Below, one piece after another: positions 22,385-63,661 of a stretch of DNA of 64,000 nucleotides; position 1 is the stretch's first letter; each line of letters begins with the position of its first letter. A program made the translations under genes and the position numbers. A model generated the notes under the pieces. That model was not told the origin of the DNA, searched no databases, and saw nothing but the letters and a program-made list of their open reading frames with translations. This DNA is from a virus: positions 200,604 through 264,603 of the IMG/VR virus record IMGVR_UViG_3300045988_173726; one strand, written 5' to 3'.

Positions 22385-22385
22385 T

Positions 22386-38622: not shown

Positions 38623-38722
38623 GAGGACAAAAAGAGGAGGAGAGCCGTTTTTAGGGGGATGAATAGCCTAGCGGCTCTTCCTTTGGCTTACAGGGCTTTT
38701 GGTAGGTAAGGGGGATAGGGAG

Positions 38723-40399
38723 ATGAGAGATAAGTTTCTTGTGTGTTCATATGTTGAGGGTAGTGGATTTTTGGTTGTGTCAGAAATGTCCGCAGAGGGA
38801 GCGGTTAAGACACAGGAAGAGATAGAGCGGGAGATGGCAGGGGATGATAGCGCCGAGTATCTGTTTGTGCGGGATAAGGCAGGAGAGCTTGACTTTAGTA
38901 TTGAGGCAAACGGCTTGTCTGTATATCGCGAGGGGGAAGATGGGAAGCTTACACTTGTGTCCGAGGGAAGGAATCGCATTATAGGCGTGATTGACGAGGT
39001 AATTGGAAGTAAACTTCTGTATAAGGTGATTGACGCATATGGGAAAGCATCTGTAAAAGAGCTGTCGTTTGACGAAATCGCACGGGATAACTACTTAATC
39101 ATGCCATTTATCGGTGACAGCGGAAAATACCGCTCATTTTTAGATAAGATAGAAGAGAGAAGGAGAGTAATTTCAGAAAATCCGAAGTATTTCGAGGAAG
39201 AGGCTCGTAGTCGGCTCGTAGGGCAGGATTGCGCAGTCTATACAGAGGAGCGGCAGGGTGCAGAGTTTGTGACTGTGGTTCGTTCGTTTAATCCCTGTGG
39301 TAGCGGGGTTTGTAAACTTTCAAATCGTGTGAATCATGTTTTTATAGAATTAGGTTCTTTTATTTCAGCGGGTATTCGGGTGCTGGATTTAAGTGAGTGT
39401 TCTTGTCTAACGAGATTTATTCTAACAAAGGTTAGTGTTGTTATAAGCGAATCTCCGATAACGATAATCTTTAATGAGGGGTATCATGCAGGCTTAGACG
39501 CACGCATACATGTGGAAGGGGCGAATATTAGGTTTATCGGGCTGTCCTCGGTAAAGGAGCTGAATATTGAGAATAGCCATATAGAGGGGATTTCTGCTTT
39601 GAGGGTAACAACTGGCTCACGAGTTCATGGTGAGGTGCGGATTAAGAATAGCACAGGGTTTAATCAGCTCAAGATTGATTTAAGCGAGAATGAGGGTAAA
39701 GAGGCTCTGGCGTATATTTGTGGGGTAGACGCGAATGAGATAGAGATTATCGGGAGTGGACAGGGAATCGGGGAAACGCACTGTGTTACTGGGTTAAAGG
39801 TTGCAAAGTGTAAGGAATTGACGCGCCTTAAAGTGAGTGGAGTTGGAGTTTGCTCATTGCAGGAAATCACAAGGTCGTTTTGTGACCTTCCAAAACTTGT
39901 TAGCTTTTCTCTTTACGCACATAAGCTAAATTTTACAGTCTCACAGTATGCGAGGCAGGAGGTGTTTAATTTGACTCTTGGCTCAACTGCGCTTCGTGAG
40001 CTTATTTTGTCAGCAGAGTATACGACTCGCGGGGCTAAGTGGCTAAAGGTCGGGTATGACAGGCGGGTAGCCTTAAGCCTTCCAGATTCGCTTCGGGAGT
40101 TTGTAGTTCCGATGGATTTAACAGACGAGTGCCTTAATTTACTGGCGCTTACGAGTTCATATAAAGGTCTTTTTATGGACGGTGATAAGCTTACGCTTGA
40201 CTTAGGGGATGTAGATAATCCAGATGTTTACCCGATACTTGTGAGTTCTGGTGGCAAGGCTAATTTTAGAGTTCCGTCATGTGTAGATAAGATTGTTGAC
40301 ACGAGCGTATATTCTTGTGACTTAAAGTTTAGGCTGTTTTTACATAGTAGGACAGAGGTAGCGGATTCTGTGGTTGAAGAGGTAGTGAGATGCGACTAG
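38723..40399 (+). CDS. Cys-linker + LRR-like family paralog 1
   Basis: 'ARSRLVGQDCAV...FNPCGSGVCKL...GIRVLDLSECSCL', then repeated L/I/V-x-L units. ATG sits behind 'aaggggga'; the track start is 38699. Confidence 0.65.
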   Translation: MRDKFLVCSYVEGSGFLVVSEMSAEGAVKTQEEIEREMAGDDSAEYLFVRDKAGELDFSIEANGLSVYREGEDGKLTLVSEGRNRIIGVIDEVIGSKLLYKVIDAYGKASVKELSFDEIARDNYLIMPFIGDSGKYRSFLDKIEERRRVISENPKYFEEEARSRLVGQDCAVYTEERQGAEFVTVVRSFNPCGSGVCKLSNRVNHVFIELGSFISAGIRVLDLSECSCLTRFILTKVSVVISESPITIIFNEGYHAGLDARIHVEGANIRFIGLSSVKELNIENSHIEGISALRVTTGSRVHGEVRIKNSTGFNQLKIDLSENEGKEALAYICGVDANEIEIIGSGQGIGETHCVTGLKVAKCKELTRLKVSGVGVCSLQEITRSFCDLPKLVSFSLYAHKLNFTVSQYARQEVFNLTLGSTALRELILSAEYTTRGAKWLKVGYDRRVALSLPDSLREFVVPMDLTDECLNLLALTSSYKGLFMDGDKLTLDLGDVDNPDVYPILVSSGGKANFRVPSCVDKIVDTSVYSCDLKFRLFLHSRTEVADSVVEEVVRCD

Positions 40400-42111
40400 A
40401 GGGAGAACTGTTCGAGGTTAAGCGCGGGATGTTCTACGCCTGTTTAGCCTGTGTAGAGGGTTATAAGGGGTCTGACGGGTTTATAGTAGTGCCGATGGTT
40501 CGGAGTAATTTACGGGAAGAGGGGTTTTCAGCCAACAGCGGGTGGGTTATTGAGAAAGGGCTTTTTAATTCAGTAGACCCGAATTTTTTAATCTTTGGCA
40601 AAACACACCAGCTTCCAGTTTATCGTGTAAGGAGTGACAGAAAGCTCTCTCTAAAGTCTAGGGGAATGGATAGGATTTTCACGGTAGGTAATAGCTTGGG
40701 GTCTCTTTGTATTACGGAGATAAATTCTGTGGGAGAGCTTTTGGTAGAGAAAGTGAATATTCCAAAGATTTTAGAAAAGCAGGCTAGTTCGGTGTTTATA
40801 AATGTTATAAGTGGCGAAGATGTGGCTTCTGTTAAGTTTAGGGACGCGTTGATGAATAAGCTAGGGGAGTTGAGGGGTAAATTCTCTGGAGATGATTTAG
40901 GGTTATCAATAGTACAAAATGCTCTAACAAACGCGGATTGCAGTATGTTAGAGCCAATGGGTCTTAATACTTGCCTAGTTGGTTTTTATGAATGTAAAAC
41001 AGGGGTCTGCCAAGTCCTTGATAGGGTAGATTATGTTAGAATTAGCATATATTCTATGATTAAGGCAGGGGTTAGGGTTCTTGACTTATCAAGATGCACG
41101 CGGTTAAAGGAGTTTACACTGACAGGTGGGGGAAGTGGTGGCATCATTACGATTATCTTTAATGACGCATTAAGTTATAGGATGGACAGTAAGATACAGA
41201 TTTCTTCTGCGGGGGTTCGGTTTATCGGGTTAAAGCATATTGGTATTCTGGAGGCTGACGATTGCCGTATAGAGGGTATTTCAGAAATCACCTTTGCTTC
41301 TCCTAGAGATACGATAAAGTCCTGTTGTGTTAATCTTCATAAGTGTGATGGATTTGATTCATTGAAGATTAACGTAGGAAATACAGCGTTTAACTTGGAA
41401 TCTTCCATTTCAATTTCTGATATAGACGCAAAAGAGATTTCAATTAAGATGCACGAGAAAAAGGTAGAAGCCGAGGATTTTGAGATAGCGCGTTGTGCTG
41501 AATTAGAGAGTCTTACAATAGACGGAGCAGGGGAGTGGTATTTTTCAGATTTAGTACAAAAGATTAGGCTGTTACCTAAGCTAAGGAGGGCAAGATTTAA
41601 TTTCGATTCCTTTAATATAAACCTGATTAATAACGAGAGAGGTGCAATTTCTAACCTAAGCCTAGGCTCTACAGTATTAGAGAGTCTTAAAATTTGCGCA
41701 GATTATTCAATGGACGAATACAGTATGAGTCCAGAGATATGGTGCGATAGTAGAGTGGAATTAGATTTGCCGAGTGAGTTAATGGAGCTGATAACTATAA
41801 AAAGGCTCACAGATATGGGTAGATTTCTACTCGCGTTTACTTGCGGTACGGTAGCACTTAAAAGAAATGGTAGAGAGGTTAGCTTAAACTTAGAGGAGCT
41901 TAGGGATTGGGATGGCTTTGATGATAACGGATGGTCTATGGTTACAAGAAACCTTTCACTGTATCCAAAGTGTGCGCAAGTAAACGGAGAGCCAGCTATC
42001 CGTATTCCAAAGAGCATAGTGAGTTCCGTGGATAGTAATTCTGTGAATGGTTGGAAGTCTGGGACAGGCTATCGAGTTTATTTAGGAGATGAGAGAATTG
42101 ATAAGGAATGA
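40390..42111 (+). CDS. Cys-linker + LRR-like family paralog 2
   Basis: 'QNALTNADCSM...ECKTGVCQV...GVRVLDLSRCTRL'. Confidence 0.65.
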   Translation: MRLEGELFEVKRGMFYACLACVEGYKGSDGFIVVPMVRSNLREEGFSANSGWVIEKGLFNSVDPNFLIFGKTHQLPVYRVRSDRKLSLKSRGMDRIFTVGNSLGSLCITEINSVGELLVEKVNIPKILEKQASSVFINVISGEDVASVKFRDALMNKLGELRGKFSGDDLGLSIVQNALTNADCSMLEPMGLNTCLVGFYECKTGVCQVLDRVDYVRISIYSMIKAGVRVLDLSRCTRLKEFTLTGGGSGGIITIIFNDALSYRMDSKIQISSAGVRFIGLKHIGILEADDCRIEGISEITFASPRDTIKSCCVNLHKCDGFDSLKINVGNTAFNLESSISISDIDAKEISIKMHEKKVEAEDFEIARCAELESLTIDGAGEWYFSDLVQKIRLLPKLRRARFNFDSFNINLINNERGAISNLSLGSTVLESLKICADYSMDEYSMSPEIWCDSRVELDLPSELMELITIKRLTDMGRFLLAFTCGTVALKRNGREVSLNLEELRDWDGFDDNGWSMVTRNLSLYPKCAQVNGEPAIRIPKSIVSSVDSNSVNGWKSGTGYRVYLGDERIDKE

Positions 42112-42268
42112 TAAGCTGACAGGTAGAAGTAGAGCAAGTAGTACGGTATATGCGAAAGAGGTTACAGGGGAAGCTAGGAGTAAAAACTTCGTTTATCTGA
42201 TTCGAGGCTTGGTCTGTGAGGCAGACGGGGAAAATTCAAGAATAGTAGGCTTTTTAGTCCAGAAATAA
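42098..42268 (+). pseudogene. Fragment of a family N-terminal module (frame 2), out of frame with 42280..42702
   Basis: It encodes '...FVYLIRGLVCEADGENSRIVGFLVQK*', which matches the first strand-turn-strand of the paralog N-termini. There is no good start or RBS. The next ORF continues the module in frame 1. Confidence 0.35.
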
Positions 42269-42279
42269 ACCTGCGAGGT

Positions 42280-42702
42280 ATGGTAGGCGGTGACGACAGC
42301 TGGTATTATATTCCGCTTGCCGTTTATGCTGAACTACTTCGCGGAGGTTTTGTGGAGCATTTTAGTCTTAATGAAAAAGAGCATAGCGAGTTTAGTCCTT
42401 ATTTGTTTCCGATATTTAAGCGCAGGAACGAGGGTGAATTTGTAGTGGTCGAGGCAGGGAAGGCGATACGAGTCTATGGTTCTGATAAGACAGGTTTATT
42501 TGGGGCATTTGATAGGCTTGGAAATAATATATCTGGAAGTGATGTGCCTTTTAGCTGGTACAGGGAGCATCTGGGGGAGTTTGCGCTGTCTACAAGCGCC
42601 TCGATGCGGCTAATGGACAAGTATGGTATGGGAGAGGCTAGATTTTACTGGTGCTTGTCTCGTTCAATAGAGAAAGAGAATTTAAGGAGGAGAAATAAGT
42701 GA
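42280..42702 (+). CDS. Stand-alone remnant of the family N-terminal module
   Basis: 'YLFPIFKRRNEGEFVVVEAGKAIRVYG' corresponds to the 'LPxF...G(K/R)xRI' motif of the paralogs. There is no linker or LRR part. Confidence 0.45.
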   Translation: MVGGDDSWYYIPLAVYAELLRGGFVEHFSLNEKEHSEFSPYLFPIFKRRNEGEFVVVEAGKAIRVYGSDKTGLFGAFDRLGNNISGSDVPFSWYREHLGEFALSTSASMRLMDKYGMGEARFYWCLSRSIEKENLRRRNK

Positions 42703-43004
42703 GTGTGTCGAATATAGAGCGCGAGACAGTGATTCTGTTTAACGAAGCAGAGGATACGGTGAGTGTATACACATTTAACCAGACTCTAAAGCGGAAGTTA
42801 GGAGATTTTAGCGAGAAGTATCCTGCACTTTGTAAAAAGACGGCAGAGGATAGCCTAGGAAGCGTGACCTATTCAGTCGCAAAGGACAGGCTTTCGATAA
42901 GTTTACGCGCTCCGCTTAGTGAGGAGAAGAAAGAAGCGCTTCGTGAGAGAGGTAAGAAGCTGTTTGAGAGGCTTAAGGCGAAGCAGAGTCGGGAAGAGGG
43001 GTAA
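42699..43004 (+). CDS. Hypothetical protein
   Basis: 101-aa ORF with a GTGA overlap to the upstream gene. No family recognised. Confidence 0.45.
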   Translation: MSVSNIERETVILFNEAEDTVSVYTFNQTLKRKLGDFSEKYPALCKKTAEDSLGSVTYSVAKDRLSISLRAPLSEEKKEALRERGKKLFERLKAKQSREEG

Positions 43005-43009: not shown

Positions 43010-44986
43010 ATGGATTATTCTTATAATGGACGGAAGAAAGTAGAGGTTTACGCAGTTTACGGTAAGGTGGAGAGTTCCGATGAGTATTTGCTAGCGGTAG
43101 CAGACACTCATCGTGATGGATTTCGTTTTTCAGCCTGTAAGGTATGCGGCAGTGATTATATACGGGAGTTAGCGGAGAATGGTAGACTGCTGTTTTTCCG
43201 TAATTGCGGTGATAGGCTTACATCAAGTGTTCCGAACAGTATGTTTGCTTCATTTGTTGTGGGAGAAGATGGGAAGCCCGTGCTTAAGAAGCGTGGAGTT
43301 CCGATGCTTTTATCTGTAGAGAGTGTAGTGGAAAGCACAGCTACGGTAAATCTTATCCTAGCGGACGGCACGCTGTTTCATGGGGATATTGGGGCATGGG
43401 AGTTAGGTCGTAGGATAGTTTATCGGGGTGAAGATGTAGTCGAGGGGTCTATTCTTTCGGATGCCTATTACGAAGATACAAGCGAGGTTTTAGGGGATAG
43501 TCTAGAGCGTTTTATGATTCGCCGTTTTGAGATTGTTGCAAAGAACGCGGAGTATAGTAAAGAGGCTTCGAGGTCTGCACTGGTCGGCGGGGCTTTTGCA
43601 GAGTACAATGGAAATGCGAGGGATGCGTTTAAGGACGAGTTTTACAAAGAAAACGGTTTATTTTGGGTTGTAACGAGCTTTTATCAGTGTTCAAATCATG
43701 TGTGTAGGTTACCTTCTTATGTAGACGGGTTAGAGTTTAACATAGACCGTTGTATGGAGACTGGTGTAAAGGTGGTGGATGCGTCTTGTTGTGAGAAGTT
43801 GAGCTATATTAATATATTCTCCGCAAGTGGAAGGATTTATGATGAGAAAGTCACTGTAATTCTTCCCAGTAAGTTTAGGTCTATTAAGGATAAGTTAAGC
43901 CTCTACGGGGTAAGTATCGACTTTTTAGGGGCTAATATATCTGTAAAAGAGTTTTCGGCAACGGACAGTGAAGTTAAAAACATAGGTCGGGTTAAGACGA
44001 ATGGGATATACATAGCAGGAACTAGCTTTATGCAGGACGAATTAGAGGTGTCACTTGTGGGCGGGTATAGAAGTGACAGGGAAATTTTCCTAGAGGTACC
44101 GTCCCTTGTGTTAAACATTTCTTCAAAGTATGACGGATGTATTATAGAGAGTGATAGCCTAGAGCGTTTGTCGGTATCCTGTAAGAGCGTCTGCTTAGAG
44201 AGTTTTTCCGAGTGCGTTACAGCGCAGAATCTAAAAGAAGTTCGTCTGGTTGCTGGGGAAGTGAGTTCTTTGCTCGCTGGTAGAGTAGAGGATAGGTTTC
44301 ATGTGTTATTGTTTGGGTCAGAGCGTCTTTCGAGCATAAGTATCATGGCAGACAGTATAAAGGGGCGTGCGACTACTTTGTTTTGTAGGGACAGTGTGAG
44401 GGTAAACATAGAGACCAAGGACGGGAGTGAGGAGAAGGTTTGTATTTCTCCTAGGCAGTTTAGCGATAGGTTTATTAGGATATGTAGCGTGCTTGGTGGC
44501 GGCTGTATTCGGTATCATAACGGGGTATTTGCGCTGGCTTTTGACTATGATTATTCGTTTGATAAGATGGCACGGGTATTTAGGACAGAGGGAGACAAAA
44601 TAATCCTAGACATACCGGAAGAAATCAAAGAGTTTAGAGGGTTTTCTAGGGATTATGAGTTTGATTTCGAGACGGTTCTGCGCTTTAACGGGGATATAGC
44701 AATAACTGGGCAGATGGACGGGCTTAAGCCTGTTCGTATTGAGAACAGTGAGTTTATTACGAGTCTTTGTAACTATGCGTTTGCGGATTGCGAGGTAGCG
44801 AAGTTTGAGTTTAGGATAGGTGATAAGCTAAAGAGGTTGCCTGATAACTGTTTTCGGAGTTCTGGGATAAGTAGGATTTACGGGATAGAGAAGCTAGAGA
44901 GCGTATCTCCGACTGCGGTAGAGAATTGCGTATTAGATAGTGCGACCGAGAGGGAGCTAAAGGCTAAGATTCAGCGGAAGGTTTAA
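43010..44986 (+). CDS. Cys-linker + LRR-like family paralog 3 (with C-terminal BspA-type LRRs)
   Basis: 'SRSALVGGAFAE...QCSNHVCRL...GVKVVDASCCEKL'. C-terminal 'ITSLCNYAFADCEVAKFEFRIGDKLKRLPDNCF'. Confidence 0.65.
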   Translation: MDYSYNGRKKVEVYAVYGKVESSDEYLLAVADTHRDGFRFSACKVCGSDYIRELAENGRLLFFRNCGDRLTSSVPNSMFASFVVGEDGKPVLKKRGVPMLLSVESVVESTATVNLILADGTLFHGDIGAWELGRRIVYRGEDVVEGSILSDAYYEDTSEVLGDSLERFMIRRFEIVAKNAEYSKEASRSALVGGAFAEYNGNARDAFKDEFYKENGLFWVVTSFYQCSNHVCRLPSYVDGLEFNIDRCMETGVKVVDASCCEKLSYINIFSASGRIYDEKVTVILPSKFRSIKDKLSLYGVSIDFLGANISVKEFSATDSEVKNIGRVKTNGIYIAGTSFMQDELEVSLVGGYRSDREIFLEVPSLVLNISSKYDGCIIESDSLERLSVSCKSVCLESFSECVTAQNLKEVRLVAGEVSSLLAGRVEDRFHVLLFGSERLSSISIMADSIKGRATTLFCRDSVRVNIETKDGSEEKVCISPRQFSDRFIRICSVLGGGCIRYHNGVFALAFDYDYSFDKMARVFRTEGDKIILDIPEEIKEFRGFSRDYEFDFETVLRFNGDIAITGQMDGLKPVRIENSEFITSLCNYAFADCEVAKFEFRIGDKLKRLPDNCFRSSGISRIYGIEKLESVSPTAVENCVLDSATERELKAKIQRKV

Positions 44987-45009: not shown

Positions 45010-45894
45010 GTGAACGGAAGCCTGTATTTTGATTGTGCGAGTGGGTGTAGATTTAACGAAGCGCTAAGTGCCTTTACAATGAGTTATGGAGTTGCGAATC
45101 TGCTTACGAGTGTCCCGCCATGTGATAATGGAGTTTGCGTGCTACCTTCATTTACAGACGGGATTGATTTAGACTCTGGCGACTTATCAGATATGGGGAT
45201 TAAGGTTTTAGACGCTTCTAAGTGCAAGAAGTTAAAGTTTGTTAGCTTATCGGCAGGAAGGGTAGAGAACAAGGTTAGGCTAATAATGCCGAGAAATTTA
45301 TCAGATTTAAGGGTATTGATGCTGTGTGGAGTGACAGTTGATTTTAAGTCAGCAGAGTTATGGCTAGATACTCTGGCAATAGACTTATTTAGCGAGGTAT
45401 CTGGAATTGAAGAGGTGCATTGTGCGAATGTGAGTATAGACAATACAGTTTGTTTTAGGCAGGATATCCTAGTGCTTAACAATGATGTAGTAACTTATGA
45501 CAACATACCTTCCATTAGCGAGGTATATAGCAGTCCTATTCGACTTAAAGTAGTGGGATTGGATAGGATTTCACAGCAGGAGATAGAGATTCAGAGTGAT
45601 GAGGTAGCGGAGCTAAGTTTATTTGGTAGTATATTTGCGGTGATTCCGTTTAGTGAGGCAATAAGAGCCAAAAATCTTCGAGTTCTAAATTTAGAGGTGC
45701 AAGAGGTAAGGTCATATATGCGCGGCTATGGTAGAGAAGTTTGCGTTGGTGCTTTTGGAAATCGTCTGTTGTTCGGTTCTGATAAGCTAAAAGAGATAAA
45801 TATACGCGCAGAGAAGATAGACAGCGAGGATGAGAGAACTCTTCGCGATTATTACAGTAAGTTCGGGGTGAGATTGAGCGTAACAAGAGTTTAA
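45010..45894 (+). CDS. Family paralog lacking the N-terminal module (LRR part only)
   Basis: It begins just before 'PPCDNGVCVL...GIKVLDASKCKKL'. 294 aa. Confidence 0.55.
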   Translation: MNGSLYFDCASGCRFNEALSAFTMSYGVANLLTSVPPCDNGVCVLPSFTDGIDLDSGDLSDMGIKVLDASKCKKLKFVSLSAGRVENKVRLIMPRNLSDLRVLMLCGVTVDFKSAELWLDTLAIDLFSEVSGIEEVHCANVSIDNTVCFRQDILVLNNDVVTYDNIPSISEVYSSPIRLKVVGLDRISQQEIEIQSDEVAELSLFGSIFAVIPFSEAIRAKNLRVLNLEVQEVRSYMRGYGREVCVGAFGNRLLFGSDKLKEINIRAEKIDSEDERTLRDYYSKFGVRLSVTRV

Positions 45895-45925
45895 GCGGAC
45901 GGTAGGAACAAAATTTGATTTAGAG

Positions 45926-45957
45926 ACGGGAGCTGATAAGTACACGCTCCCGTTTTA
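45926..45957 (+). terminator. Rho-independent terminator
   Basis: Stem acgggagc/gctcccgt with a 12-nt loop, then tttt. Confidence 0.65.
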
Positions 45958-46275
45958 GCGATATAAGTTTAAGTAAGAGTTTGGGCTTTATGAGGCTTAT
46001 TTTGCCTCTAGCCTTATGGGGGACGAGAGTGCTGTTTTAGGGGAGTTTAACAATTAGGGGTAGAGGGGGCCGAGTAATCGGTTTAAGCGGCGTAGCGGGG
46101 CGCGTGGTGCGTCACAGGGCATGCAGAAGATGTTTGCTGGGGCAAGCGTTAGTATCGAAGCAAGTGCGGTTGTCTGGGAATCTTATGGTTCAGATAGCCC
46201 ACGCAATAGCGACACAGAGGTAGGATTTAGTAAGTTGCCAGAGAGTCTAAGAGGAATTATTGTGAGGAGGGGGAG

Positions 46276-52191: not shown

Positions 52192-52237
52192 ATAGGCGGG
52201 ACAGCGGTTAATCCGAAAGACCCGCCTATGTTTATGT
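52192..52237 (+). terminator. Probable terminator hairpin
   Basis: 9-bp stem ataggcggg/cccgcctat with a 20-nt loop, followed by the T-rich gtttatgtt. Confidence 0.45.
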
Positions 52238-54491: not shown

Positions 54492-54504
54492 GGGGGTGGC
54501 AAGA

Positions 54505-56851: not shown

Positions 56852-59218
56852 ATGGGTCAATTTTCTAGGTTTTTGCAGGGAGTTGTCGTAGCAAAGGATA
56901 AGAGCGGAGCATATGTTCCGAAGAAGTATATCGTAAGGCGGCACGGTAGCGGTTATCTAAACGGGTCTACAGAGTGGTTGAATGACGCGCTGGATGGTGA
57001 CTATCAGAGGCTTGTGACAGAGCATGGACTTGCTGAATTAAGTGAAGGAAAGTCTGTGCACAAGGATTTCACAGCAAAGTCAATCTCGGATACATTTCAT
57101 TTGGACGCGCTTCCGAAGTTTATTCTTGAGAAAGACGGTAGTCTTAGGCTTTTATCGCGCGGGAAGTATAGGATTATGGAGGTGCAACCCTATAGTAGAG
57201 ACGGAAGTATTAAAGTTACCTATCAAGATGACAGCGGGAATTTCAAGCGAGTGCCGATTAGTAAGGAAGCATGGGGGTCGTGGCTTTTAGCGAGAGACTA
57301 TGTTCCGACTTTTACATCGAATAGGGAACAGAGTAACTTTATCGAGAGCATTCCGATAGATGTCTTGATGCATGGGAATGACAAGTTTAATCTTGAATCC
57401 TCTCGCATGAAGCTAACGAACGGGGACTGTGCTAGGATTAAGGTAGACACAAGTGATGGTTTAGAGCCTAAGCTTGCAGTATTTGGGTTTAATAAGAGTG
57501 ATAATGGGGTTTGTAAGGTAAATAGCCAAGTAGATATAGTAGAAATAAGCGTAGCATCAGCTTTAAGTAGCGGGGTTGCCGTTTTAGATTTAAGTTCTTG
57601 CGAGAAGCTTTCAAAGGTTAGCCTTAGCGGTTCAATCAGTGAGAAGTTTAGTGTGATATTCCCGAGTAGGCATGCTAAGTCACTTGATATAAGCCTTGAC
57701 CTATCTGGCGGGGAACTTAATCTGGTAAATTTCGGGGAGTTTACTAATGGAAGTGACTTTAATTTACTTTGTTTAGAGTATGTTCAACTAACAGGGGATT
57801 TTCCGAAAAAGATTAAGGGCAGTGGAGTGGTTAGATTAACTACTGTAATAGGGCTACCCAGCAGTTTATCTGTTGACGGGTGTGCGGCTGATAGCTGGTT
57901 TTGTGATTTAGTTGATGTAAATAAGATTAGCGTGACTTGTCCTTATAAGATTCCGCTTTTTGCAAGTCTTAACAGTCTTACAGAGCTTTCGATTGAGGAG
58001 ACTGACACCTTTTCACCTTATTGGTTTTCCCGTAGTTTTAGCAAATTGAGAAACTTGAGAGTGGTGAAAATAAAGTGTAGGGAGTTTTCTGGGGTAATTG
58101 GATATGGAAACAAATACGAGGTTTTAAGTGCTAACTTTTCCTCCGATAAGTTAGAGAGTATTGAGGTTTATGCGGATAGGGTGTCTGCTAGAGACATCGT
58201 AATAGGGTATTCGAGCGGGGTAAAGGTTAGATGTAGCGATAGCTTAAAGGATGTCTTTGTCCCAGTGAGTTATAGTGAATATGTTCGTGAGTTACTAAAG
58301 TTTAATGGGTTTATTGAGCTATTATATTTGCGTGATTCACATAAAATTTGCCTTAATATGGCACAGGTTAATGTACCTTCTGGAGCAAGCGACAGAGTAA
58401 AGAATTGTCTTGATTCAGCATTTCGCTCTCTGCTATTAGAGAGCAAACTGTTCACGAAAGACTGTTTAACAGTTCCACCAGAGTTAGAGGTACTTTCAAG
58501 TCCAGATGATAGAGAAGTGTTTGAGCAGTTAAATTGGAATCCTTCAAGGATTAAGATTCTGTCAGAGCTTTCAATCAATAAGGGTACCTTTATGGGTGTG
58601 GAAGGTCTTAAAGAGATAGTAGGGAGTGAGTATCTGGTATCCGTAGGAGAAGAAGCCTTTGCTGGGACAGGATTATCTAAGGTAATGTTTGGCGATAAGC
58701 TAAGGGAGATTAAAGATAGAGCGTTTTGTCTTTGTGATAAGCTAGTAGATGTTTCTATACCAACTGATTGCCCTGCGGTTAAAAATCGAGGTATAGAAGA
58801 GAGTGCGTTTGGAGCTTGCGCTGTGCTAAGTAGAGACACGATAGAGAGACTTGATGCGCTTGGAATTAATGTTTATAGAGGTAGTAGCTATATAATTTGG
58901 GGGTTAATGCGTAGCAGAGGTTTCTTGGTGTCTAAGGATGAGCTAGTAAAGCACATTAGTCCAGATAATCTATACTATTTACGCAAGGTATATAGTCTTA
59001 TAGACAAGTACGGAGAAGTTCCGTTGAGGACAAGAAGAGTTGCTGATTCGTTTAAGTACAATATCAACACTGTGAAAGCATATCGTGAGCAGTATAACAA
59101 AGAGGTTGCCGAGTATAGGAGAACTGGCGCATCGTTATCGGAGGAAGTTCTAAAGAAAGAGTATTCTGCCATGTGCTTGTTTAAGCAATTTGACTATATA
59201 GCGGAGGAGAAGATATGA
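56852..59218 (+). CDS. Long family paralog (same architecture)
   Basis: 'SRMKLTNGDCAR...KSDNGVCKV...GVAVLDLSSCEKL'. BspA-like 'GSEYLVSVGEEAFAGTGLSKVMFGDKLREIKDRAFCLCDKLVDV'. Tail 'FKYNINTVKAYREQY'. Confidence 0.7.
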   Translation: MGQFSRFLQGVVVAKDKSGAYVPKKYIVRRHGSGYLNGSTEWLNDALDGDYQRLVTEHGLAELSEGKSVHKDFTAKSISDTFHLDALPKFILEKDGSLRLLSRGKYRIMEVQPYSRDGSIKVTYQDDSGNFKRVPISKEAWGSWLLARDYVPTFTSNREQSNFIESIPIDVLMHGNDKFNLESSRMKLTNGDCARIKVDTSDGLEPKLAVFGFNKSDNGVCKVNSQVDIVEISVASALSSGVAVLDLSSCEKLSKVSLSGSISEKFSVIFPSRHAKSLDISLDLSGGELNLVNFGEFTNGSDFNLLCLEYVQLTGDFPKKIKGSGVVRLTTVIGLPSSLSVDGCAADSWFCDLVDVNKISVTCPYKIPLFASLNSLTELSIEETDTFSPYWFSRSFSKLRNLRVVKIKCREFSGVIGYGNKYEVLSANFSSDKLESIEVYADRVSARDIVIGYSSGVKVRCSDSLKDVFVPVSYSEYVRELLKFNGFIELLYLRDSHKICLNMAQVNVPSGASDRVKNCLDSAFRSLLLESKLFTKDCLTVPPELEVLSSPDDREVFEQLNWNPSRIKILSELSINKGTFMGVEGLKEIVGSEYLVSVGEEAFAGTGLSKVMFGDKLREIKDRAFCLCDKLVDVSIPTDCPAVKNRGIEESAFGACAVLSRDTIERLDALGINVYRGSSYIIWGLMRSRGFLVSKDELVKHISPDNLYYLRKVYSLIDKYGEVPLRTRRVADSFKYNINTVKAYREQYNKEVAEYRRTGASLSEEVLKKEYSAMCLFKQFDYIAEEKI

Positions 59219-59430
59219 AAACAAGATATTTGATAGGTAAGCTTGTGTCGTCCGAGGGGAATCATCCCCTCGGATATTTGGTAGGGGAGGTTTCCTTTAA
59301 GGGTGATGGCGCTCCATCCATCGTGGGTAGTTTTGGAGTGAAGGAGCTTATCAGCGAGAGTGAGATTGGGGCAGAGGTGGAATTTGTACAGTGGCTTAAA
59401 GGGTCTTTTCGTATAAGGAGTTTAACATAG
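59215..59430 (+). CDS. N-terminal fragment of the next family paralog (separated by a frame change)
   Basis: 'YLIGKLVSSEGNHPLGYLVGEVSFKGDG' matches the paralog N-termini. It stops at TAG 59428, while frame 3 is open from 59400 and continues the module. Confidence 0.45.
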   Translation: MKTRYLIGKLVSSEGNHPLGYLVGEVSFKGDGAPSIVGSFGVKELISESEIGAEVEFVQWLKGSFRIRSLT

Positions 59431-59465
59431 ACAGGCTTCCTGTTTATGAGGGTAGCGCGGAAAAT

Positions 59466-61580
59466 TTGAGTTCGTCTGGTCTAAAGCTAATAAAGGCGGG
59501 TGACATTAGGCTAATAATGCTGTATGACAGAACTGTTTACTACTTAAATGAGCGCGGTAGAATTACATATAAGATTTTTTCAACGGAGGATGGGATAAAA
59601 GAGTGGATAAACAGTCATAGGGTGCTGTTTGCGTGTGCTACGGACAGCAAATTAAACAGGCTTTGTAAGTATGTAACAGTAGATGGTAGGATGTTCGGTG
59701 ATAAGGAGTATGAGAAGAGGGTAGCTCGGAATAGGCTTACGCATGAGGATTGTGGGTTATATAGTGTGGAAGGCACTAGCGGTTTGATTAGTTTGTCTGG
59801 CTTTTCGCAGTGTTATAACGCTGTTTGTAAGCTAGGGGACTTTTTAGAGGAAGCTAGAATTACTGGTAGAGGGGTTCGTGAGAGTGGAATAGAAGTTCTT
59901 GATATGAGCGAGTGCCATAGGCTAAGAAGTCTAAGCTTAGGCGCTGTTGACGCAAAGATAATATTGCCAGAAGCCATTGATAATCCTTGCACAGTAGATA
60001 TTACTGTAGGAAGCACTGTTCCAGACGGCTTTTCTAAGTTTATCAGTAACAGAAATGTAACTCTAGCACTTAGTGCAAGAAAGGTGAAGCTTGATAGCTT
60101 AGGTAATGCGGACAGTTTAGAGTTTAACTGCACGAGTGCGAAGTTATTAGATGTAAAGGGGCTTCCAAGAAAGGTTTCAATCAACTGTAGCGATATTACT
60201 GTAGTGACAGGGTGTCCAGACATAGAGGAGATGACAATAAACCTTACAGATTGCGGAGAGGCTAGAGTTTATAATTGCGAAAACTTAAGGGTGGCAAAGA
60301 TTTTTGGAATGATAGATTTAAGTGTGTCGGATTTAGAGGGATTATTCCTAAATTGCCCGAAGTTAGAGGAGATAGAGCTTTCTTGCGAGGAGTTTCATCC
60401 GAGTGGGTCAATCAATAGTAGTGGGTTAGCTTTTAAGCGGAGGTTGCTTACGATAAACGGGATAACAGGTGGGAATGTAAAGAGGTTTTCGCTTAACGCA
60501 GAGAGGTGTGCCAAGTATGCTGACTATCATTATCATGAACCAGTAATCTACACTATAGGAGATACTAAACATATCGTAAGTGAAAATATACAGCAATTTT
60601 TCGCAGATTACAAAGCGAGTGCGGAGTTAGCAGAGCTTCTTCGTTTTAGTAGGCTGTTTGCAGTGCTTGAGAGAGATAGCGGAGAGCTATTCTTAGCTGG
60701 GACTCAACTGTATATTGATTCAAGAGTCTGCATTGATATGTTTAATAGGCTGTCAAGAAACAGTTCAGTGTTTAGCGGGGATGTGTTTAATGTTCCGAAG
60801 GAGATTCGTTATTTAGAGCAATTTAACATTGATAAATTTTACAATATAAGGCGCGTTTCGGTTAGGTCTGCGCTAGCACTTAGGGAGGAAACATTTTATA
60901 AGTCCAAGGTAGAGGAGATAGACGGTAGCGAGTATATAGACGAGATTTCTCGTTATTCGTTTTCTGGAAGTAGCCTAAAGAGCATTGTGATTAGTGATAA
61001 GATAGTGGGTATTCCAGACTATGCGTTTAGTGGTTGCGGTGAATTGAGGGATGTAAAGTTTCTAGGTAATACGAGAGTAAACACCAGAGCATTTCTTGGT
61101 TGTAGTGCATTAAGCGATGAGTCTCTTAAAGAGATTTGGAAGCGTGGAGCGGGAAAAGATAGCGAGTTTATCTTTGAAGTCTTGTTCGCTGGAGATTGGA
61201 AGAGTCTAGCGGACAAGACTATGCTAATAACGCCAGAGCATCTTAAGTACACATACGCAATTTATAGGCTAGTTAGTATTTATGGCAAAGAGAGCCTTGC
61301 TTCTACGATGACAAATGGTAGGGACGATTTGTTTTCCCGTGATTTGTTGGTGCTTTGGACGCGGCGTAGTGAGGTGGAAGCCGACATACGGGAAAGGCTT
61401 AAGACGCGGGGAAAGGGTTCAGAGGATACGCTGGTTTGCGAGAGGGCGGCGCGGGAGCTGTTTCAAGATTACGGGAAGTTCATGCAGGAGGCAGTCGAGG
61501 CTAGGGAGCTGATTCCGACAGGTCATGAGAATAAAGCGGAATGGGAAAGGTTAAGTGGTTTTCAGCGTGGCAGTTTATAA
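59466..61580 (+). CDS. Long family paralog (body), 5' part probably in the upstream ORF
   Basis: 'ARNRLTHEDCGL...QCYNAVCKL...GIEVLDMSECHRL'. BspA-like 'GSEYIDEISRYSFSGSSLKSIVISDKIVGIPDYAFSGCGELRDV'. The track start is a weak TTG. Confidence 0.6.
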   Translation: MSSSGLKLIKAGDIRLIMLYDRTVYYLNERGRITYKIFSTEDGIKEWINSHRVLFACATDSKLNRLCKYVTVDGRMFGDKEYEKRVARNRLTHEDCGLYSVEGTSGLISLSGFSQCYNAVCKLGDFLEEARITGRGVRESGIEVLDMSECHRLRSLSLGAVDAKIILPEAIDNPCTVDITVGSTVPDGFSKFISNRNVTLALSARKVKLDSLGNADSLEFNCTSAKLLDVKGLPRKVSINCSDITVVTGCPDIEEMTINLTDCGEARVYNCENLRVAKIFGMIDLSVSDLEGLFLNCPKLEEIELSCEEFHPSGSINSSGLAFKRRLLTINGITGGNVKRFSLNAERCAKYADYHYHEPVIYTIGDTKHIVSENIQQFFADYKASAELAELLRFSRLFAVLERDSGELFLAGTQLYIDSRVCIDMFNRLSRNSSVFSGDVFNVPKEIRYLEQFNIDKFYNIRRVSVRSALALREETFYKSKVEEIDGSEYIDEISRYSFSGSSLKSIVISDKIVGIPDYAFSGCGELRDVKFLGNTRVNTRAFLGCSALSDESLKEIWKRGAGKDSEFIFEVLFAGDWKSLADKTMLITPEHLKYTYAIYRLVSIYGKESLASTMTNGRDDLFSRDLLVLWTRRSEVEADIRERLKTRGKGSEDTLVCERAARELFQDYGKFMQEAVEARELIPTGHENKAEWERLSGFQRGSL

Positions 61581-61722
61581 GGGGCGGTGGCGCACGAGAC
61601 GGTTTTCTGTGGGGCTTAAAGGGAGTAGACAGTAAAAGTATCAGGTAAGGGCTAGAATCCCTTCTAGGGGGCTTCTAGTAGCTCATAATGGCAAATAGGT
61701 CTTAGACGCACCAGAATGCGTT

Positions 61723-61763: not shown

Positions 61764-61825
61764 AGTGGTTTCGGTGGCTCCTAGGTGGCTTCCCGTGGGT
61801 GACAGAGGCATAGAAAGAGGCAAGT

Positions 61826-63250
61826 ATGAGTTGGTACGAGACAGGTGAAGTAGATTTTCCTTTGTATCGGTTTATTTTGTTTGGGTATATGGTTTCAGAG
61901 CAGGGGGAGGTAATAGCATATCGCTTTGGGCTTTTGCGTGTAGTTCGGGATAGGTCAAACTCAACGAGCATCGGGACAGAGGATTGGGTTAGCCAAGATA
62001 GCCTAGATGAGTTTCTTCGGGAGTATGGTAGCCTAGTTCTAAAGGGAACAAAGGAGATGCTTTCGGATGGAAGTTTTCGTTGGCGTTTGTCTGCGGTTAA
62101 TCGGGACATGGAGTTAGTGACAGAGGGAAGAAAGGCGCTGGTGGTTACTGGTGGAAGTAGCCCGCTAGAGTACTTTTACTCGCTTGATGAGAAGGGGAAG
62201 TTTACATATTCTGGAGTTGTGAAAGGTGACGCGCATAAGATTGCGGAGCGGCTGTTTAACGGGGAGCTTCTGTTAGCGGACGAGGAGTTTATATCGGATG
62301 AGTATAAGAGGATTGTTATGCTCGGGGAAGAGTATAGAAGGAAATATGCGGCAGAGATAGCGAGAGACGCACTAACCAATCGAAATATTTCAGAGATATA
62401 CCTTTCAGAAGCGGGAGAATTATGTGCGAGAGGGTTAAAAGGGGTAAGTAACGGGGTAAACAGCTATCCTAGCTTTGTGAAAGGGGTAACGGTATCTACG
62501 CGGAGTCTATATGACAGTAAGACGGAAGTTCTTGATATGTCTAAATGTGCTGGGTTAAAGTCATTCGAGATATATGAAGCCGCGAAAGCATACCGTAAAA
62601 AGCTCCCCAGTTTATCGCTTATATTCCCTAAAGAGTTGCGTGAGGATTTGTCCTGCCATATAAAGTTAGAGGTGGAGTCAGAGGGATTAAAGATTATAGA
62701 CTACCCAAAGGGAGCAGTTTTTAATAAGCTGTGCGTAACAGATGGTAAGATAACAGGAATAGACAGGACTGTTAAGGTAGAGAATTGTTATATTAGAGAT
62801 TGCACGGGGTTATCGGAGCTTTCTATCGAGGTTATTGAAAAGGAAGATGTGTATCAAGATTTGACACTTTGTAGCCTTGACACTGTTAAACTTTCTGTAA
62901 CATTAGTTTCTGTTAAGTATTTAGATATAGAATTAAGCCTAGATTTTCTAAAGGAGTTTAGATTAACAATTAGTGGAGAAGAAACTGAACTATGTAACCT
63001 CACTTTACAGTGTATTGGTTTTGATATTGGGGTTGACGGTCTTGAAACTCTTGTGATTGAGAGTAAGAAAGGCTTCGTATTCGGTGGTTGCGCAGACTTT
63101 GCGCGTGTGTATCCCTCTCTTAAGCGCCTAGAGATTAGAGGATATATGGCTTTTGGGAACAATGTAGAGGATGAGGTAGTATTTGTTCCTAGAGGTTGCA
63201 AAGTAATTTGCAACAATGCCGAGTTTATAAAGCATGTGAGGGAGCGATGA
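61826..63250 (+). CDS. Cys-linker + LRR-like family paralog (divergent linker)
   Basis: 'ARDALTNRNISE...KTEVLDMSKCAGL'. N terminus 'FILFGYMVSEQGEVIAYRFGLLRVV'. Confidence 0.6.
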   Translation: MSWYETGEVDFPLYRFILFGYMVSEQGEVIAYRFGLLRVVRDRSNSTSIGTEDWVSQDSLDEFLREYGSLVLKGTKEMLSDGSFRWRLSAVNRDMELVTEGRKALVVTGGSSPLEYFYSLDEKGKFTYSGVVKGDAHKIAERLFNGELLLADEEFISDEYKRIVMLGEEYRRKYAAEIARDALTNRNISEIYLSEAGELCARGLKGVSNGVNSYPSFVKGVTVSTRSLYDSKTEVLDMSKCAGLKSFEIYEAAKAYRKKLPSLSLIFPKELREDLSCHIKLEVESEGLKIIDYPKGAVFNKLCVTDGKITGIDRTVKVENCYIRDCTGLSELSIEVIEKEDVYQDLTLCSLDTVKLSVTLVSVKYLDIELSLDFLKEFRLTISGEETELCNLTLQCIGFDIGVDGLETLVIESKKGFVFGGCADFARVYPSLKRLEIRGYMAFGNNVEDEVVFVPRGCKVICNNAEFIKHVRER

Positions 63251-63661
63251 ATGGGAGAGTCAAAGAGACCCGAAGAAATCTACGCGATTTCGGGATATGT
63301 GCTTAATGATAGCGGTGATATAGGTTATTTACGGATTATAAAACTTGGGTTTGAGCGTTTCTACGAATATAAACAGGTAGATTCCGTGTATATTCCCTTA
63401 GAGGACATGAATGAGTTTTTGAGTGACGGTAAGGAGTTTGCTTATAGGGAGATGCCAAGTGCCGAGTTTATCCGTAGCCTTCCTAGGTTTAGCGCGGCGG
63501 GTCGGGTCTTAAAGTCTGGGGTTAGTCAGATATTAGATATTCAGTCCAGCGGGAGTGACGGTGAAATCAGTAGTTTCCAACAATGTAGGAGGAAAGTTGA
63601 ATTGTTTCTCGATTTTCTATTAGGCGTGATGATGTTCTGGTTAGGCTACGTTGTAAGATAG
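63251..63661 (+). CDS. Truncated family paralog (N-module only), probably interrupted by a downstream insertion
   Basis: 'IYAISGYVLNDSGDIGYLRIIKLG...IPLEDMNEFLSDGKEF...LPRFSAAGRVLKSG' follows the family N-module. The last ~35 aa are unrelated and hydrophobic. Confidence 0.45.
   Translation: MGESKRPEEIYAISGYVLNDSGDIGYLRIIKLGFERFYEYKQVDSVYIPLEDMNEFLSDGKEFAYREMPSAEFIRSLPRFSAAGRVLKSGVSQILDIQSSGSDGEISSFQQCRRKVELFLDFLLGVMMFWLGYVVR

What the first reader, a model, noticed from the sequence alone, without database searches (positions are those of the whole stretch)
38699..63661. ~25-kb tandem array of 13-14 divergent paralogs with a conserved Cys linker and cysteine-containing LRR-like repeats
**Seen.** Thirteen consecutive + strand ORFs, plus fragments, share one architecture.
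- A variable N-terminal module with a 'hydrophobic strand-G-x-V...DG' start and a later 'LPxF....G(K/R)xR(I/V)' motif.
- A strongly conserved linker, '(A/S)R(N/S)(R/A)(L/M)T(G/x)xDC(x)V ... (G)FNxxxNGVCK(L/V) ... G(V/I)(K/R)VLD(L/M)SxCxxL'. This is followed by many 'LxxLx(L/I)xxCxxL' units.
- Four long members (52266, 54505, 56852, 59466) and 43010 add BspA-type LRRs ('GSEYLxS(V/I)GxxAFxG...L'). The four long ones end in HTH-like tails.
- The copies are too diverged for DNA-level repeats to be visible.
- The array also contains an N-less copy (45010), N-only remnants (42098-42702, 63251-63661) and a frame-broken copy (59215/59466).
- Terminators at 45926 and 52192 and G-rich spacers split it into several transcription units.

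**Established.** Cys-containing LRRs of the form LxxLxLxxCxxL are typical of RNI-like/F-box-type LRR proteins. BspA-type LRRs are common in host-associated bacteria. Both are protein-binding solenoids.

**Inference.** This is a birth-and-death multigene family taking up well over a third of the window. It may be a diversified panel of binders aimed at host proteins or defence components, or DNA-tethered via the HTH tails. I do not recognise it as any described phage system.
Basis: partly seen in the sequence, partly recalled or inferred. Interest (0 to 1): 0.85.

Follow-up and report, generated by a model that had tools for sequence, protein, structure and literature searches.

The report
Jumbo-phage tandem array of LRR binder genes
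An uncultivated ~265-kb human-associated phage spends about 15% of its genome on some 24 tandem, very diverged copies of one gene family that joins an N-terminal domain with no known structural relative to a leucine-rich-repeat binding scaffold; no deposited phage has this family and its function is unknown.

Summary
Thirteen co-oriented ORFs (38699-63250) are mutually significant paralogs at 20-31% identity. There are also three decayed copies: an N-domain-only gene broken by a 46-bp deletion, a frameshifted copy, and a 14th copy cut off at 63573.

The shared build is a ~150-aa beta-rich N-domain with no fold match, a two-helix linker, and a leucine-rich-repeat (LRR) solenoid with cysteines at the ladder position. 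Five members add a BspA-type LRR_5 block.

The array is larger than reported. The window is part of a 264.6-kb contig, and the array continues past the window end. Relatives carry about 10 more copies, giving roughly 24 genes over ~40 kb.

The copies are old, keep 1:1 orthologs in 240-273-kb relatives, and evolve under purifying selection (dN/dS 0.14-0.46, against 0.02-0.12 for neighbours).

There is no match in 50,697 GenBank phages, PHROGs, PADLOC or NCBIfam. The "HTH tails" are not supported, and the RNI/F-box LRR subclass is not met.

My best guess (about 0.4) is a panel of intracellular LRR adaptors that bind host proteins. Virion adhesins are the main rival (about 0.3).

The parts
38446..38622 (+). 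58-aa ribbon-helix-helix (CopG-type) ORF directly upstream of the array. It is a possible regulator; the link to the array rests on position only.
   Evidence: Pfam RHH_1 at 26.3 bits, above the 20.5 cutoff.
38699..40399 (+). Copy 1: N-domain, linker, LRR and a C-terminal extension. The likely true start is the ATG at 38723.
   Evidence: BLASTP. A2 profile E 2.5e-124 (a self-hit, since this copy is in the profile). Ortholog P0122 begins MRDKF.
40390..42111 (+). Copy 2. It overlaps copy 1 by 10 nt and is its closest paralog (29% identity).
42086..42702 (+). N-domain-only gene. It is 214 aa in relative L001 and is frame-broken here by a 46-bp deletion near 42257.
   Evidence: N-domain profile E 1e-4 in the window and 4.6e-7 for the intact L001 ORF. 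The DNA alignment shows the 46-bp gap.
42699..43004 (+). 101-aa non-family ORF embedded in the array. It is conserved in relatives.
   Evidence: phrog_1709, function unknown, E 5e-9. No family hit.
43010..44986 (+). Copy 3, with a C-terminal BspA-like LRR block.
   Evidence: LRR_5 at 26.5 bits, just below the 27.7 cutoff. 113 orthologs at 82-98% identity.
45010..45894 (+). Copy 4, which lacks the N-domain and starts at the LRR cap.
   Evidence: Matches A2 profile positions 83-359 only. Closest paralog is 43010 (31% identity).
45923..45956 (+). Intrinsic-terminator-like hairpin followed by UUUU. It ends the first transcription unit.
   Evidence: -18.3 kcal/mol, z -5.0, 0 of 200 shuffles fold as well.
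46276..47979 (+). Copy 5, with a long N-domain.
   Evidence: Ortholog identity is only 50-63% among relatives.
47961..49403 (+). Copy 6.
49387..50484 (+). Copy 7, with a shortened N-domain. It is the closest paralog of copy 6 (30% identity).
50532..52181 (+). Copy 8.
52192..52229 (+). Terminator-like hairpin with a U-rich tail. It ends the second transcription unit.
   Evidence: -20.2 kcal/mol, z -3.8.
52266..54491 (+). Copy 9, a long form: N-domain, linker, LRR, BspA LRR_5 and a helical tail. This is the copy modelled with AlphaFold2.
   Evidence: LRR_5 at 37.7 bits. Mean pLDDT 73.6; blocks over residues 190-400 are mostly 81-94, and 530-630 is >90. Foldseek top hit 4fs7.
54496..56820 (+). 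Copy 10, a long form. It is the closest paralog of copy 9 (30% identity over 769 aa).
56852..59218 (+). Copy 11, a long form.
59215..61580 (+). Copy 12, a long form that is frameshifted. The N-terminal 71 codons (59215-59430) are in one frame and the rest (59400-61580) in another.
   Evidence: Intact 788-aa ortholog P0125 at 83% identity. N-domain profile hits both pieces. dN/dS 0.32, like the intact copies.
61826..63250 (+). Copy 13, a short form.
63251..63573 (+). Copy 14, truncated after about 107 codons. Homology to relatives stops at 63573/4.
   Evidence: N-domain profile E 2.5e-12. Intact 495-aa ortholog P0151. Breakpoint located.
63674..64000 (+). Start of a 443-aa TnpB-family gene that replaces the rest of copy 14. 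It is not a family member, and the array resumes after it beyond the window.
   Evidence: L012 is identical to the window. tblastn to Thermus phage TnpB E 2e-6. phrog_506 transposase E 5e-7.

Best explanation
**What it is (shown).** This is a lineage-specific tandem expansion in an uncultivated ~265-kb phage. It comprises about 24 genes over roughly 40 kb; 13 of them plus 3 decayed copies lie in the window. The genes encode non-enzymatic proteins built from two binding modules:
- a ~150-aa beta-rich N-domain with no detectable structural relative;
- a conserved two-helix linker and cap;
- a short-repeat LRR solenoid of about 9-11 coils, many with Cys at the ladder position;
- in some members, a second BspA-type LRR_5 block and a helical tail.

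The copies are old, syntenic among relatives, tightly packed into at least three operon-like units, and under purifying selection.

**How it works (inferred).** Each paralog uses its own LRR surface to bind a different target inside the infected cell. The targets would most likely be host proteins such as defence or regulatory factors. The conserved N-domain/linker would couple all paralogs to one common partner, or simply sequester the target. On this reading the array is a polyvalent host-takeover or counter-defence repertoire that helps set host range. The intracellular site and the nature of the targets are inference, not shown.
For: **Family and fold**
- Paralogy is significant.
- The LRR fold rests on three results: the AlphaFold2 model, Foldseek hits (4fs7 at E 9e-5, then LRRC8, LGR5, SspH1, TIR1, TpLRR), and PDB-sequence hits (TIR1 at E 1.2e-5, BRI1, TLR4/VLR, internalins).
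- The A2 profile also hits bacterial DUF285/LRR_5/LRR_4 proteins.

**Binder rather than enzyme**
- The N-domain model is confident (pLDDT 79, pTM 0.74).
- It has no fold match.
- Its nearly invariant residues are only Gly, so there is no catalytic signature.

**Functional genes**
- dN/dS is 0.14-0.46 per gene. The linker is usually the lowest domain (0.07-0.24 in 11 of 14 comparisons).

**Pointers to a non-virion, intracellular role**
- No signal peptide or transmembrane segment.
- Flanks are DNA-metabolism and counter-restriction genes: two m6A methyltransferases, GmrSD_N-HNH and an RHH protein upstream; guanylate kinase, a PIF1 helicase and AAA_5 downstream in relatives.
- PHROGs recognises no capsid or tail-shaft gene in the 64 kb; its only tail-category hits are to the NlpC/P60 hydrolase domain of 33260-34330.
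- Cys-ladder LRRs are typical of intracellular LRR proteins (established LRR classification), and the best PDB sequence match is the F-box protein TIR1.

**Strain-level variation, as expected for host-interaction genes**
- Mosaic allele exchange and presence/absence differences among relatives.
Against: - There is no direct evidence on timing, location or targets.
- The LRR type also resembles bacterial cell-surface adhesins. The top structural hit is a Bacteroides BspA-like protein, and the profile hits carry SLH, dockerin or Listeria-Bacteroides repeats. That resemblance fits a virion-surface role equally well.
- Gene order in jumbo phages is often scrambled, so neighbourhood is weak evidence.
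- No domain reaches dN/dS above 1, and the 113 orthologs of 43010 show no hypervariable patch. There is therefore no signature of an arms race at the level I could test.
- No common partner for the N-domain is known.
Confidence: 0.4

Rival explanations
1. **Virion-displayed adhesins or receptor-binding proteins.** The N-domain/linker anchors each paralog to the capsid, tail or fibres. The LRR then binds host cell-wall glycans, other bacteria or mucosal ligands. This would give a polyvalent adsorption apparatus.
For: - The LRR blocks are of the bacterial surface-adhesin kind: LRR_5/BspA, DUF285/LRR_5 giants with SLH or dockerin anchors, and 4fs7 as top structural hit.
- Among strains the alleles are mosaic. 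For 38699 the N-domain stays conserved (90-96%) while the LRR diverges (53-71%), as is typical of receptor-binding proteins.
- A cell-wall hydrolase (SH3_3 plus NlpC/P60) and a transglutaminase-core protein lie a few kb upstream.
- There is a precedent. In jumbo phage Goslar, 10 DUF7941 paralogs combine a shared N-module with CBM, GH or LRR domains, and some are abundant virion proteins (bioRxiv 10.64898/2026.04.21.720040).
Against: - No known anchor, fibre or baseplate domain was found.
- The array lies between DNA-metabolism genes, not in a recognisable structural module.
- From my own knowledge, about 24 types exceeds any described receptor-binding-protein set.
- The N-terminus is the more variable part and the linker the most conserved, which is the reverse of the usual conserved-anchor layout.
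Confidence: 0.3
2. **Effectors aimed at something other than the bacterial host.** Possible targets are human mucosal proteins or co-resident microbes. The proteins would be released at lysis and act like BspA-type adhesins or immune modulators.
For: BspA-type LRR_5 is present. The relatives' contigs carry human-microbiome-style sample labels (e.g. HMPC12-1, SRS013818_Baylor); the body site could not be checked.
Against: - No secretion signal.
- Only 5 of about 24 members carry LRR_5.
- Nothing ties the family to eukaryotic ligands.
Confidence: 0.07
3. **DNA-tethered regulators.** The helical C-terminal tails of the four long members are HTH domains that place the LRR on DNA.
For: The tails are helical in the model. 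An RHH gene precedes the array.
Against: - No HTH family matches the tails even at E<=5.
- The tails have low pLDDT (40-63).
- Most members have no tail at all.
Confidence: 0.05
4. **Largely decaying or selfish DNA.** On this reading the array has little current function and is a relic expansion.
For: In this one genome, three or four copies are broken, truncated or missing relative to other strains.
Against: - Every copy tested is under purifying selection (dN/dS 0.14-0.46).
- 1:1 orthologs are kept in 240-273-kb relatives.
- The reading frames are long and tightly packed.
Confidence: 0.05

Closest known systems
Bacterial BspA-like / TpLRR / DUF285 surface LRR proteins (Pfam PF13306 LRR_5, PF03382; PDB 4fs7)
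   Same: - Short, beta-rich LRR solenoid with Cys in the repeat.
- LRR_5 is above Pfam's cutoff in four members.
- 4fs7 is the best structural hit.
- The family profile hits DUF285/LRR_5 giants.
   Different: - No signal peptide or wall anchor.
- The main (middle) LRR block matches no Pfam LRR model directly, and it is not significantly related to the family's own LRR_5 block (hhalign E 0.034).
- The N-domain and linker are unique to this family.
- These are phage-encoded, in about 24 tandem copies.
F-box/LRR adaptors with Cys-containing LRRs (e.g. TIR1, FBXL proteins)
   Same: - LxLxxCxxL units.
- TIR1 is the best PDB sequence match to the family profile (E 1.2e-5).
- An adaptor-like two-module build: a binding scaffold plus a second module.
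   Different: - No F-box.
- Motif spacing clusters at 18-26 residues (commonest 22), not about 26, and the solenoid is almost helix-free.
- No ubiquitin machinery is implied.
DUF7941 paralog family of Chimalliviridae (jumbo phage Goslar)
   Same: A jumbo-phage family of about 10 paralogs with a shared N-module followed by varied binding domains, including LRR/beta-helix. It also includes members made of the N-module only.
   Different: - No sequence match to any Pfam family other than LRR_5.
- A different phage lineage.
- Here the LRR is common to all members and the array is 2-3 times larger.
- Virion association is shown for Goslar and not here.
Lineage-specific expansions in large viruses (about 35 zinc-ribbon copies in phage G; ankyrin, LRR and other repeat-protein families in amoebal giant viruses)
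   Same: One family of binding domains is amplified into tens of tandem copies that take up a sizeable share of a large viral genome (PMC7824862; PMC5753266).
   Different: The domain family and host kingdom differ. I found no report of an LRR expansion of this size in a phage.

Membership tests
LRR superfamily | Tandem LxxLxLxx(N/C)xL units that form a curved solenoid | tested here: met
   AlphaFold2 predicts an all-beta solenoid with 10-residue block pLDDT mostly 81-94 over residues 190-400. The top Foldseek hits and all PDB-sequence hits are LRR proteins. The spacing of LxLxx[C/N] motifs clusters at 18-26 residues, commonest 22.
BspA-type LRR (Pfam LRR_5, PF13306) | Score above Pfam's gathering cutoff (27.7 bits) | tested here: met
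   Scores are 37.7-53.9 bits in 52266, 54496, 56852 and 59466. 43010 scores 26.5, just below. The match covers only the C-terminal block. The other eight members have no hit.
BspA-type LRR (Pfam LRR_5, PF13306) | The main (middle) LRR block belongs to the same family | tested here: inconclusive
   No direct Pfam hit. hhalign of the middle block against the family's own LRR_5 block gives E 0.034 and probability 1.5%. The profile does hit DUF285/LRR_5 proteins at E down to 1e-21, summed over many repeats.
RNI-like / Cys-containing F-box-type LRR | Repeats of 26-29 residues with a helix on the convex side | tested here: not met
   Motif spacing clusters at 18-26 residues (commonest 22). DSSP of the model shows strands only, apart from one helix at 369-375.
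RNI-like / Cys-containing F-box-type LRR | An associated F-box or comparable adaptor domain | tested here: not met
   No F-box or any other Pfam domain N-terminal to the LRR. The N-domain has no fold match.
Phage tail fibre / receptor-binding protein families | Match to a known structural, anchor or fibre family | tested here: not met
   PHROGs returns only unknown-function families, and only through the LRR_5 block. BFVD Foldseek of the N-domain finds nothing at E<0.2. tblastn against 50,697 phage records finds no match.
Phage tail fibre / receptor-binding protein families | Presence in the virion | not testable with these tools
   This needs virion proteomics or cryo-EM.
DUF7941 family (Chimalliviridae) | DUF7941 N-terminal module | tested here: inconclusive
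   A Pfam scan at E<=0.1 returned no such family for 10 members. I did not verify that this Pfam copy contains a DUF7941 model.
Known anti-phage defence / counter-defence components | Match to a PADLOC model | tested here: not met
   0 families for 10 proteins. NCBIfam also returned nothing meaningful.
HTH DNA-binding domain (C-terminal tails) | Match to an HTH family, or a confident HTH fold | tested here: not met
   No HTH family at E<=5 for the four tails. Tail pLDDT is 40-63.

The most novel reading that the evidence does not exclude
The array is a phage-encoded repertoire of substrate adaptors, the prokaryotic-virus counterpart of the F-box/LRR, ankyrin-PRANC or BTB families of eukaryotic viruses. 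Each LRR paralog would capture a different host defence or regulatory protein. The conserved N-domain/linker would hand the captured protein to one shared machine, such as a Clp/Lon-type protease or a phage enzyme. About 24 specificities would then be held in a germline-encoded recognition panel that determines host range.
Probability: 0.15. Interest if true: 0.85.

Novelty: new variant of a known kind. Interest (0 to 1): 0.62.

Why it matters
**Scale.** About 15% of a jumbo-phage genome is spent on one family of binding proteins. That is a large and conserved investment, which implies strong selection for polyvalent recognition.

**Possible uses.**
- If the targets are host defence or regulatory proteins, the array is a ready-made library of natural protein binders and a new route of host takeover.
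- If the proteins are virion adhesins, the array would be the largest receptor-binding set I know of. It would bear on how phages find hosts in dense oral or gut biofilms.

**New domain.** The N-domain matched no known fold (Foldseek against PDB and BFVD) and is confined to this phage clade, so it is a new protein domain to characterise.

**Testability.** The clade recurs in many human-microbiome metagenome assemblies. More than 100 non-identical orthologs of a single copy were recovered, on contigs of 240-273 kb. The question can therefore be approached from existing samples.

Tried and rejected
**Family libraries.** Pfam, PHROGs, PADLOC and NCBIfam gave nothing for the core beyond LRR_5.

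**Searches that did not reach beyond the clade.**
- The word-index homolog search found only close orthologs. The exhaustive profile search was needed to see the wider family.
- The genome-contig scan with copy 1 found no bacterial relative.
- The N-domain profile search of 5.8 billion proteins returned only fragments from the same clade.

**N-domain fold.** Foldseek against PDB and BFVD gave no hit better than E 0.2 or TM 0.23. Weak PH-like/FACT and sliding-clamp resemblances were rejected as noise.

**LRR subclass.** hhalign of the middle LRR against the LRR_5 block was not significant.

**Selection tests.**
- Hypervariable or DGR-like patch: rejected. Entropy is flat across the 113 orthologs of 43010.
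- Positive selection: rejected at domain level. All dN/dS values are below 0.55.

**Other ideas rejected.**
- HTH tails.
- A Zn or disulfide role for the conserved Cys. This is not needed, because the Cys occupy the N/C ladder position of the LRR consensus.
- Sigma-70 promoter enrichment: none (27 sites found, 33 expected).
- Alternative genetic code: considered because some oral phages recode, but table 11 gives dense uninterrupted ORFs.

Full report
**1. Where the window comes from**

The window is phage-like. It encodes:
- a topoisomerase II/gyrase-A-like protein, a DnaB-like helicase, an NAD-dependent ligase and a ParB-HNH protein;
- nine tRNAs at 20.1-22.4 kb;
- a transglutaminase-core protein and an SH3_3 plus NlpC/P60 hydrolase;
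- two EcoRI-like methyltransferases;
- a GmrSD_N-HNH protein.

Every sizeable ORF is on the + strand. GC skew is +0.28 to +0.38 everywhere except the tRNA cluster.

The window is identical (0 mismatches in 12 kb) to ENA assembly ERZ28665461, record ZHAN15-1_SAMEA2738161 scaffold_1, which is 264,603 bp long. Relatives are contigs of 240-273 kb from human metagenomes; several are HMP assemblies and four are IMG/VR UViGs.

There is no near-DNA match in 50,697 GenBank phage records. The gyrase-like protein is only 23-27% identical to proteins of Firmicutes phages. The NlpC/P60 domain's nearest bacterial relatives are Lachnospiraceae and Peptostreptococcaceae MAGs at 46-50% identity. That is a weak hint of a Clostridia host.

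**2.

All-vs-all BLASTP joins 13 ORFs between 38699 and 63250 into one family (E 1e-4 to 1e-82, 20-31% identity). Flanking ORFs join nothing.

Nearest paralogs are physical neighbours: 38699/40390, 43010/45010, 47961/49387, 52266/54496 and 56852/59466. That is the signature of tandem duplication.

Residual DNA similarity survives only at the NGVCKL-coding stretch.

The genes are tightly packed, with overlaps of 4-19 nt or gaps under 50 nt. The exceptions are three longer spacers. Two of them carry strong terminator-like hairpins, at 45923-45956 and 52192-52229. A 58-aa RHH (CopG-type) ORF sits immediately upstream of the array.

**3. Fragments**

A deeper N-domain profile was built from 30 sequences, including distant members found in the exhaustive search. 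It gave these results:
- 63251-63658 is an N-domain (E 2.5e-12, or 1.4e-7 without its ortholog in the profile).
- 42086-42702 is an N-domain-only gene. It is intact at 214 aa in relative L001 and broken here by a 46-bp deletion.
- The frameshifted copy 59215/59466 has an intact 788-aa ortholog, P0125. Its dN/dS is 0.32, like the intact copies, so the break is recent or an assembly error.
- 45010 lacks the N-domain.

**4. The array is bigger than the finding**

Homology to relatives stops at 63573/4. In the source contig, a 443-aa TnpB-family gene replaces the rest of copy 14 (tblastn E 2e-6 to Thermus phage TnpB; phrog_506 E 5e-7). At least six more family genes follow it.

In relatives, copy 14 is intact (P0151, 495 aa). 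In L007, ten further copies follow the 61826 equivalent, counting copy 14 itself. The array then ends before a guanylate kinase, a PIF1 helicase and an AAA_5 gene.

The total is about 23 genes with the family core plus the N-only gene, over roughly 40 kb. That is about 15% of the genome.

Content varies between strains:
- L001 has an extra split copy where the window has a 382-bp spacer.
- L006 has a 976-aa fusion of two copies.
- L007 has a truncated 273-aa copy.

**5. What the proteins are**

*Pfam.* Pfam recognises only BspA-type LRR_5, and only at the C-terminus of the four long members. 43010 falls just below the cutoff.

*Full-length model.* AlphaFold2 of 52266 was run with the 13 paralogs as the alignment. 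Mean pLDDT is 73.6. The predicted parts are:
- a beta-rich N-domain (residues 1-150);
- two helices (156-185);
- a beta-hairpin cap;
- an almost helix-free solenoid (190-400, block pLDDT mostly 81-94);
- a second, very confident LRR block (530-630, >90);
- a low-confidence helical tail.

*Fold and sequence matches for the LRR.*
- The only Foldseek match below E 0.001 is the Bacteroides BspA-like LRR protein 4fs7. It is followed by LRRC8, LGR5, SspH1, TIR1 and TpLRR.
- The family profile's PDB sequence hits are all LRR proteins, with TIR1 best at E 1.2e-5.
- In the exhaustive search of 1.84 billion cluster representatives, about 50 single-stretch hits are the family itself. The remaining hits (583 in all at E<=0.001) are giant bacterial repeat proteins. 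Four of these were checked with Pfam. Three carry DUF285 and LRR_5, one of them with a dockerin, one with SLH and one with Listeria-Bacteroides repeats; the fourth carries LRR_4/LRR_8.

*LRR subclass.* The conserved "linker" ending in VLDLSxCxxL is therefore the N-cap plus the first LRR. The cysteines sit at the N/C ladder position of the LRR consensus (established LRR knowledge). Motif spacing clusters at 18-26 residues, commonest 22. Together with the lack of helices, this argues against the RNI-like or 26-residue Cys-containing subclass. No F-box is present. The middle block is not demonstrably the same family as the C-terminal LRR_5 block.

*N-domain.* The N-domain modelled alone (32 sequences; pLDDT 79, pTM 0.74) has no structural relative in PDB or BFVD (best E 0.2-0.3, TM at most 0.23). 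It has no sequence relative in PDB. Outside this phage clade it was not found. Its only nearly invariant residues are glycines, so it looks like a binding or structural module, not an enzyme.

*Other properties.* The helical tails match no HTH family. There is no signal peptide or membrane segment. Cys content is 2.2-3.5%.

**6. Evolution**

Against relatives, family genes show dN/dS of 0.14-0.46. Flanking genes show 0.02-0.12.

By domain, the linker/cap is usually the most constrained (0.07-0.24 in 11 of 14 comparisons). N-domain and LRR values are 0.16-0.51. None exceeds 0.55.

dS ranges from 0.02 to 1.2 between genes of the same genome pair, and identity profiles are mosaic. For example, 38699 against L009-L011 has its N-domain at 90-96% identity and its LRR at 53-71%. 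This shows allele exchange by recombination.

The 113 orthologs of 43010 have no hypervariable patch.

The array is therefore old, maintained and recombining, with occasional loss of single copies. It is not a fast birth-and-death system.

**7. Function**

No tool result gives function.

*Shown.* The family encodes non-enzymatic proteins with two binding modules, under selection, in at least three operon-like units.

*Inferred.* Each LRR recognises a different ligand, and the conserved N-domain/linker gives a common connection.

I lean toward intracellular host-protein binders, meaning counter-defence or host takeover, at about 0.4. The reasons are:
- the flanks are DNA-modification, nuclease and helicase genes;
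- no capsid or tail-shaft gene is recognisable in the 64 kb (the only PHROG tail-category hits are to the NlpC/P60 hydrolase domain);
- Cys-ladder LRRs are typical of intracellular proteins;
- the best PDB sequence match is an F-box adaptor;
- the family is larger than any receptor-binding set I know of.

The main rival, at about 0.3, is virion adhesins or receptor-binding proteins. In its favour:
- the adhesin-type LRR relatives;
- the mosaic LRR alleles with a conserved N-domain;
- the nearby wall hydrolase;
- the precedent of the Goslar DUF7941 family, whose N-module plus LRR/CBM paralogs include abundant virion proteins.

Minor rivals are extracellular effectors, DNA-tethered regulators and decaying DNA.

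**8. Novelty**

Lineage-specific expansions of binding domains are known in large viruses. Examples are about 35 zinc ribbons in phage G (PMC7824862) and the repeat-protein families of giant viruses (PMC5753266).

I found no report of an LRR array of this size in a phage. No member of this family is in GenBank phages, PHROGs, PADLOC or NCBIfam.

I rate it a new variant of a known kind: a new protein family with a new N-domain, amplified in a known manner.

Noticed in passing
window 63574-64000 (continues in L012 11849-13180): A 443-aa TnpB-family gene sits where the last ~390 codons of copy 14 should be. Relatives L006 and L007 have the intact copy and no TnpB. This looks like a mobile-element insertion or replacement inside the array.
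   Followed up: partly
window 1-64000: GC skew is extreme and uniform, +0.28 to +0.38 (G about 29%, C about 15% on the coding strand). All sizeable ORFs are on one strand. The skew dips to +0.11 only at the tRNA cluster. The cause is unknown; replication or transcription asymmetry, or a base-modification-linked bias, are possibilities.
   Followed up: no
window 38446-38622: A 58-aa ribbon-helix-helix (CopG-type) ORF lies between the GmrSD_N-HNH gene and the first array gene. It is followed by a weak hairpin (z -1.7). It could be a regulator of the array.
   Followed up: partly
window 34991-35998 and 35985-36860: Two adjacent EcoRI-like adenine methyltransferase paralogs (45% identical) are followed by a GmrSD_N plus HNH protein at 37272-38432. 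Together they look like a DNA-modification or counter-restriction cluster just upstream of the array.
   Followed up: partly
window 42699-43004: A 101-aa non-family ORF (phrog_1709, function unknown) is embedded in the array and conserved in relatives.
   Followed up: partly
window 20136-22385: A cluster of nine tRNA genes: Pro, Met, Tyr, Leu x2, Ser x2, Arg and Thr. Two of them share 83-90% identity with tRNA genes in deposited phage records, mostly of Gram-positive hosts (Bacillus, Streptomyces, Enterococcus, Listeria).
   Followed up: no
L001 13100-14662, facing window 46122-46184: Relative L001 carries an extra family copy, split into two ORFs, where the window has only a 382-bp spacer that contains the terminator.
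   Followed up: partly
L006 14301-17231: A 976-aa ORF in a relative is a head-to-tail fusion of two family copies. Two full profile matches lie at residues 84-473 and 613-973.
   Followed up: partly
window 33260-34330: The NlpC/P60 domain of the SH3_3-NlpC/P60 hydrolase has its closest bacterial relatives in Lachnospiraceae (46-50% identity) and Peptostreptococcaceae MAGs. This is a weak pointer to a Clostridia host.
   Followed up: partly
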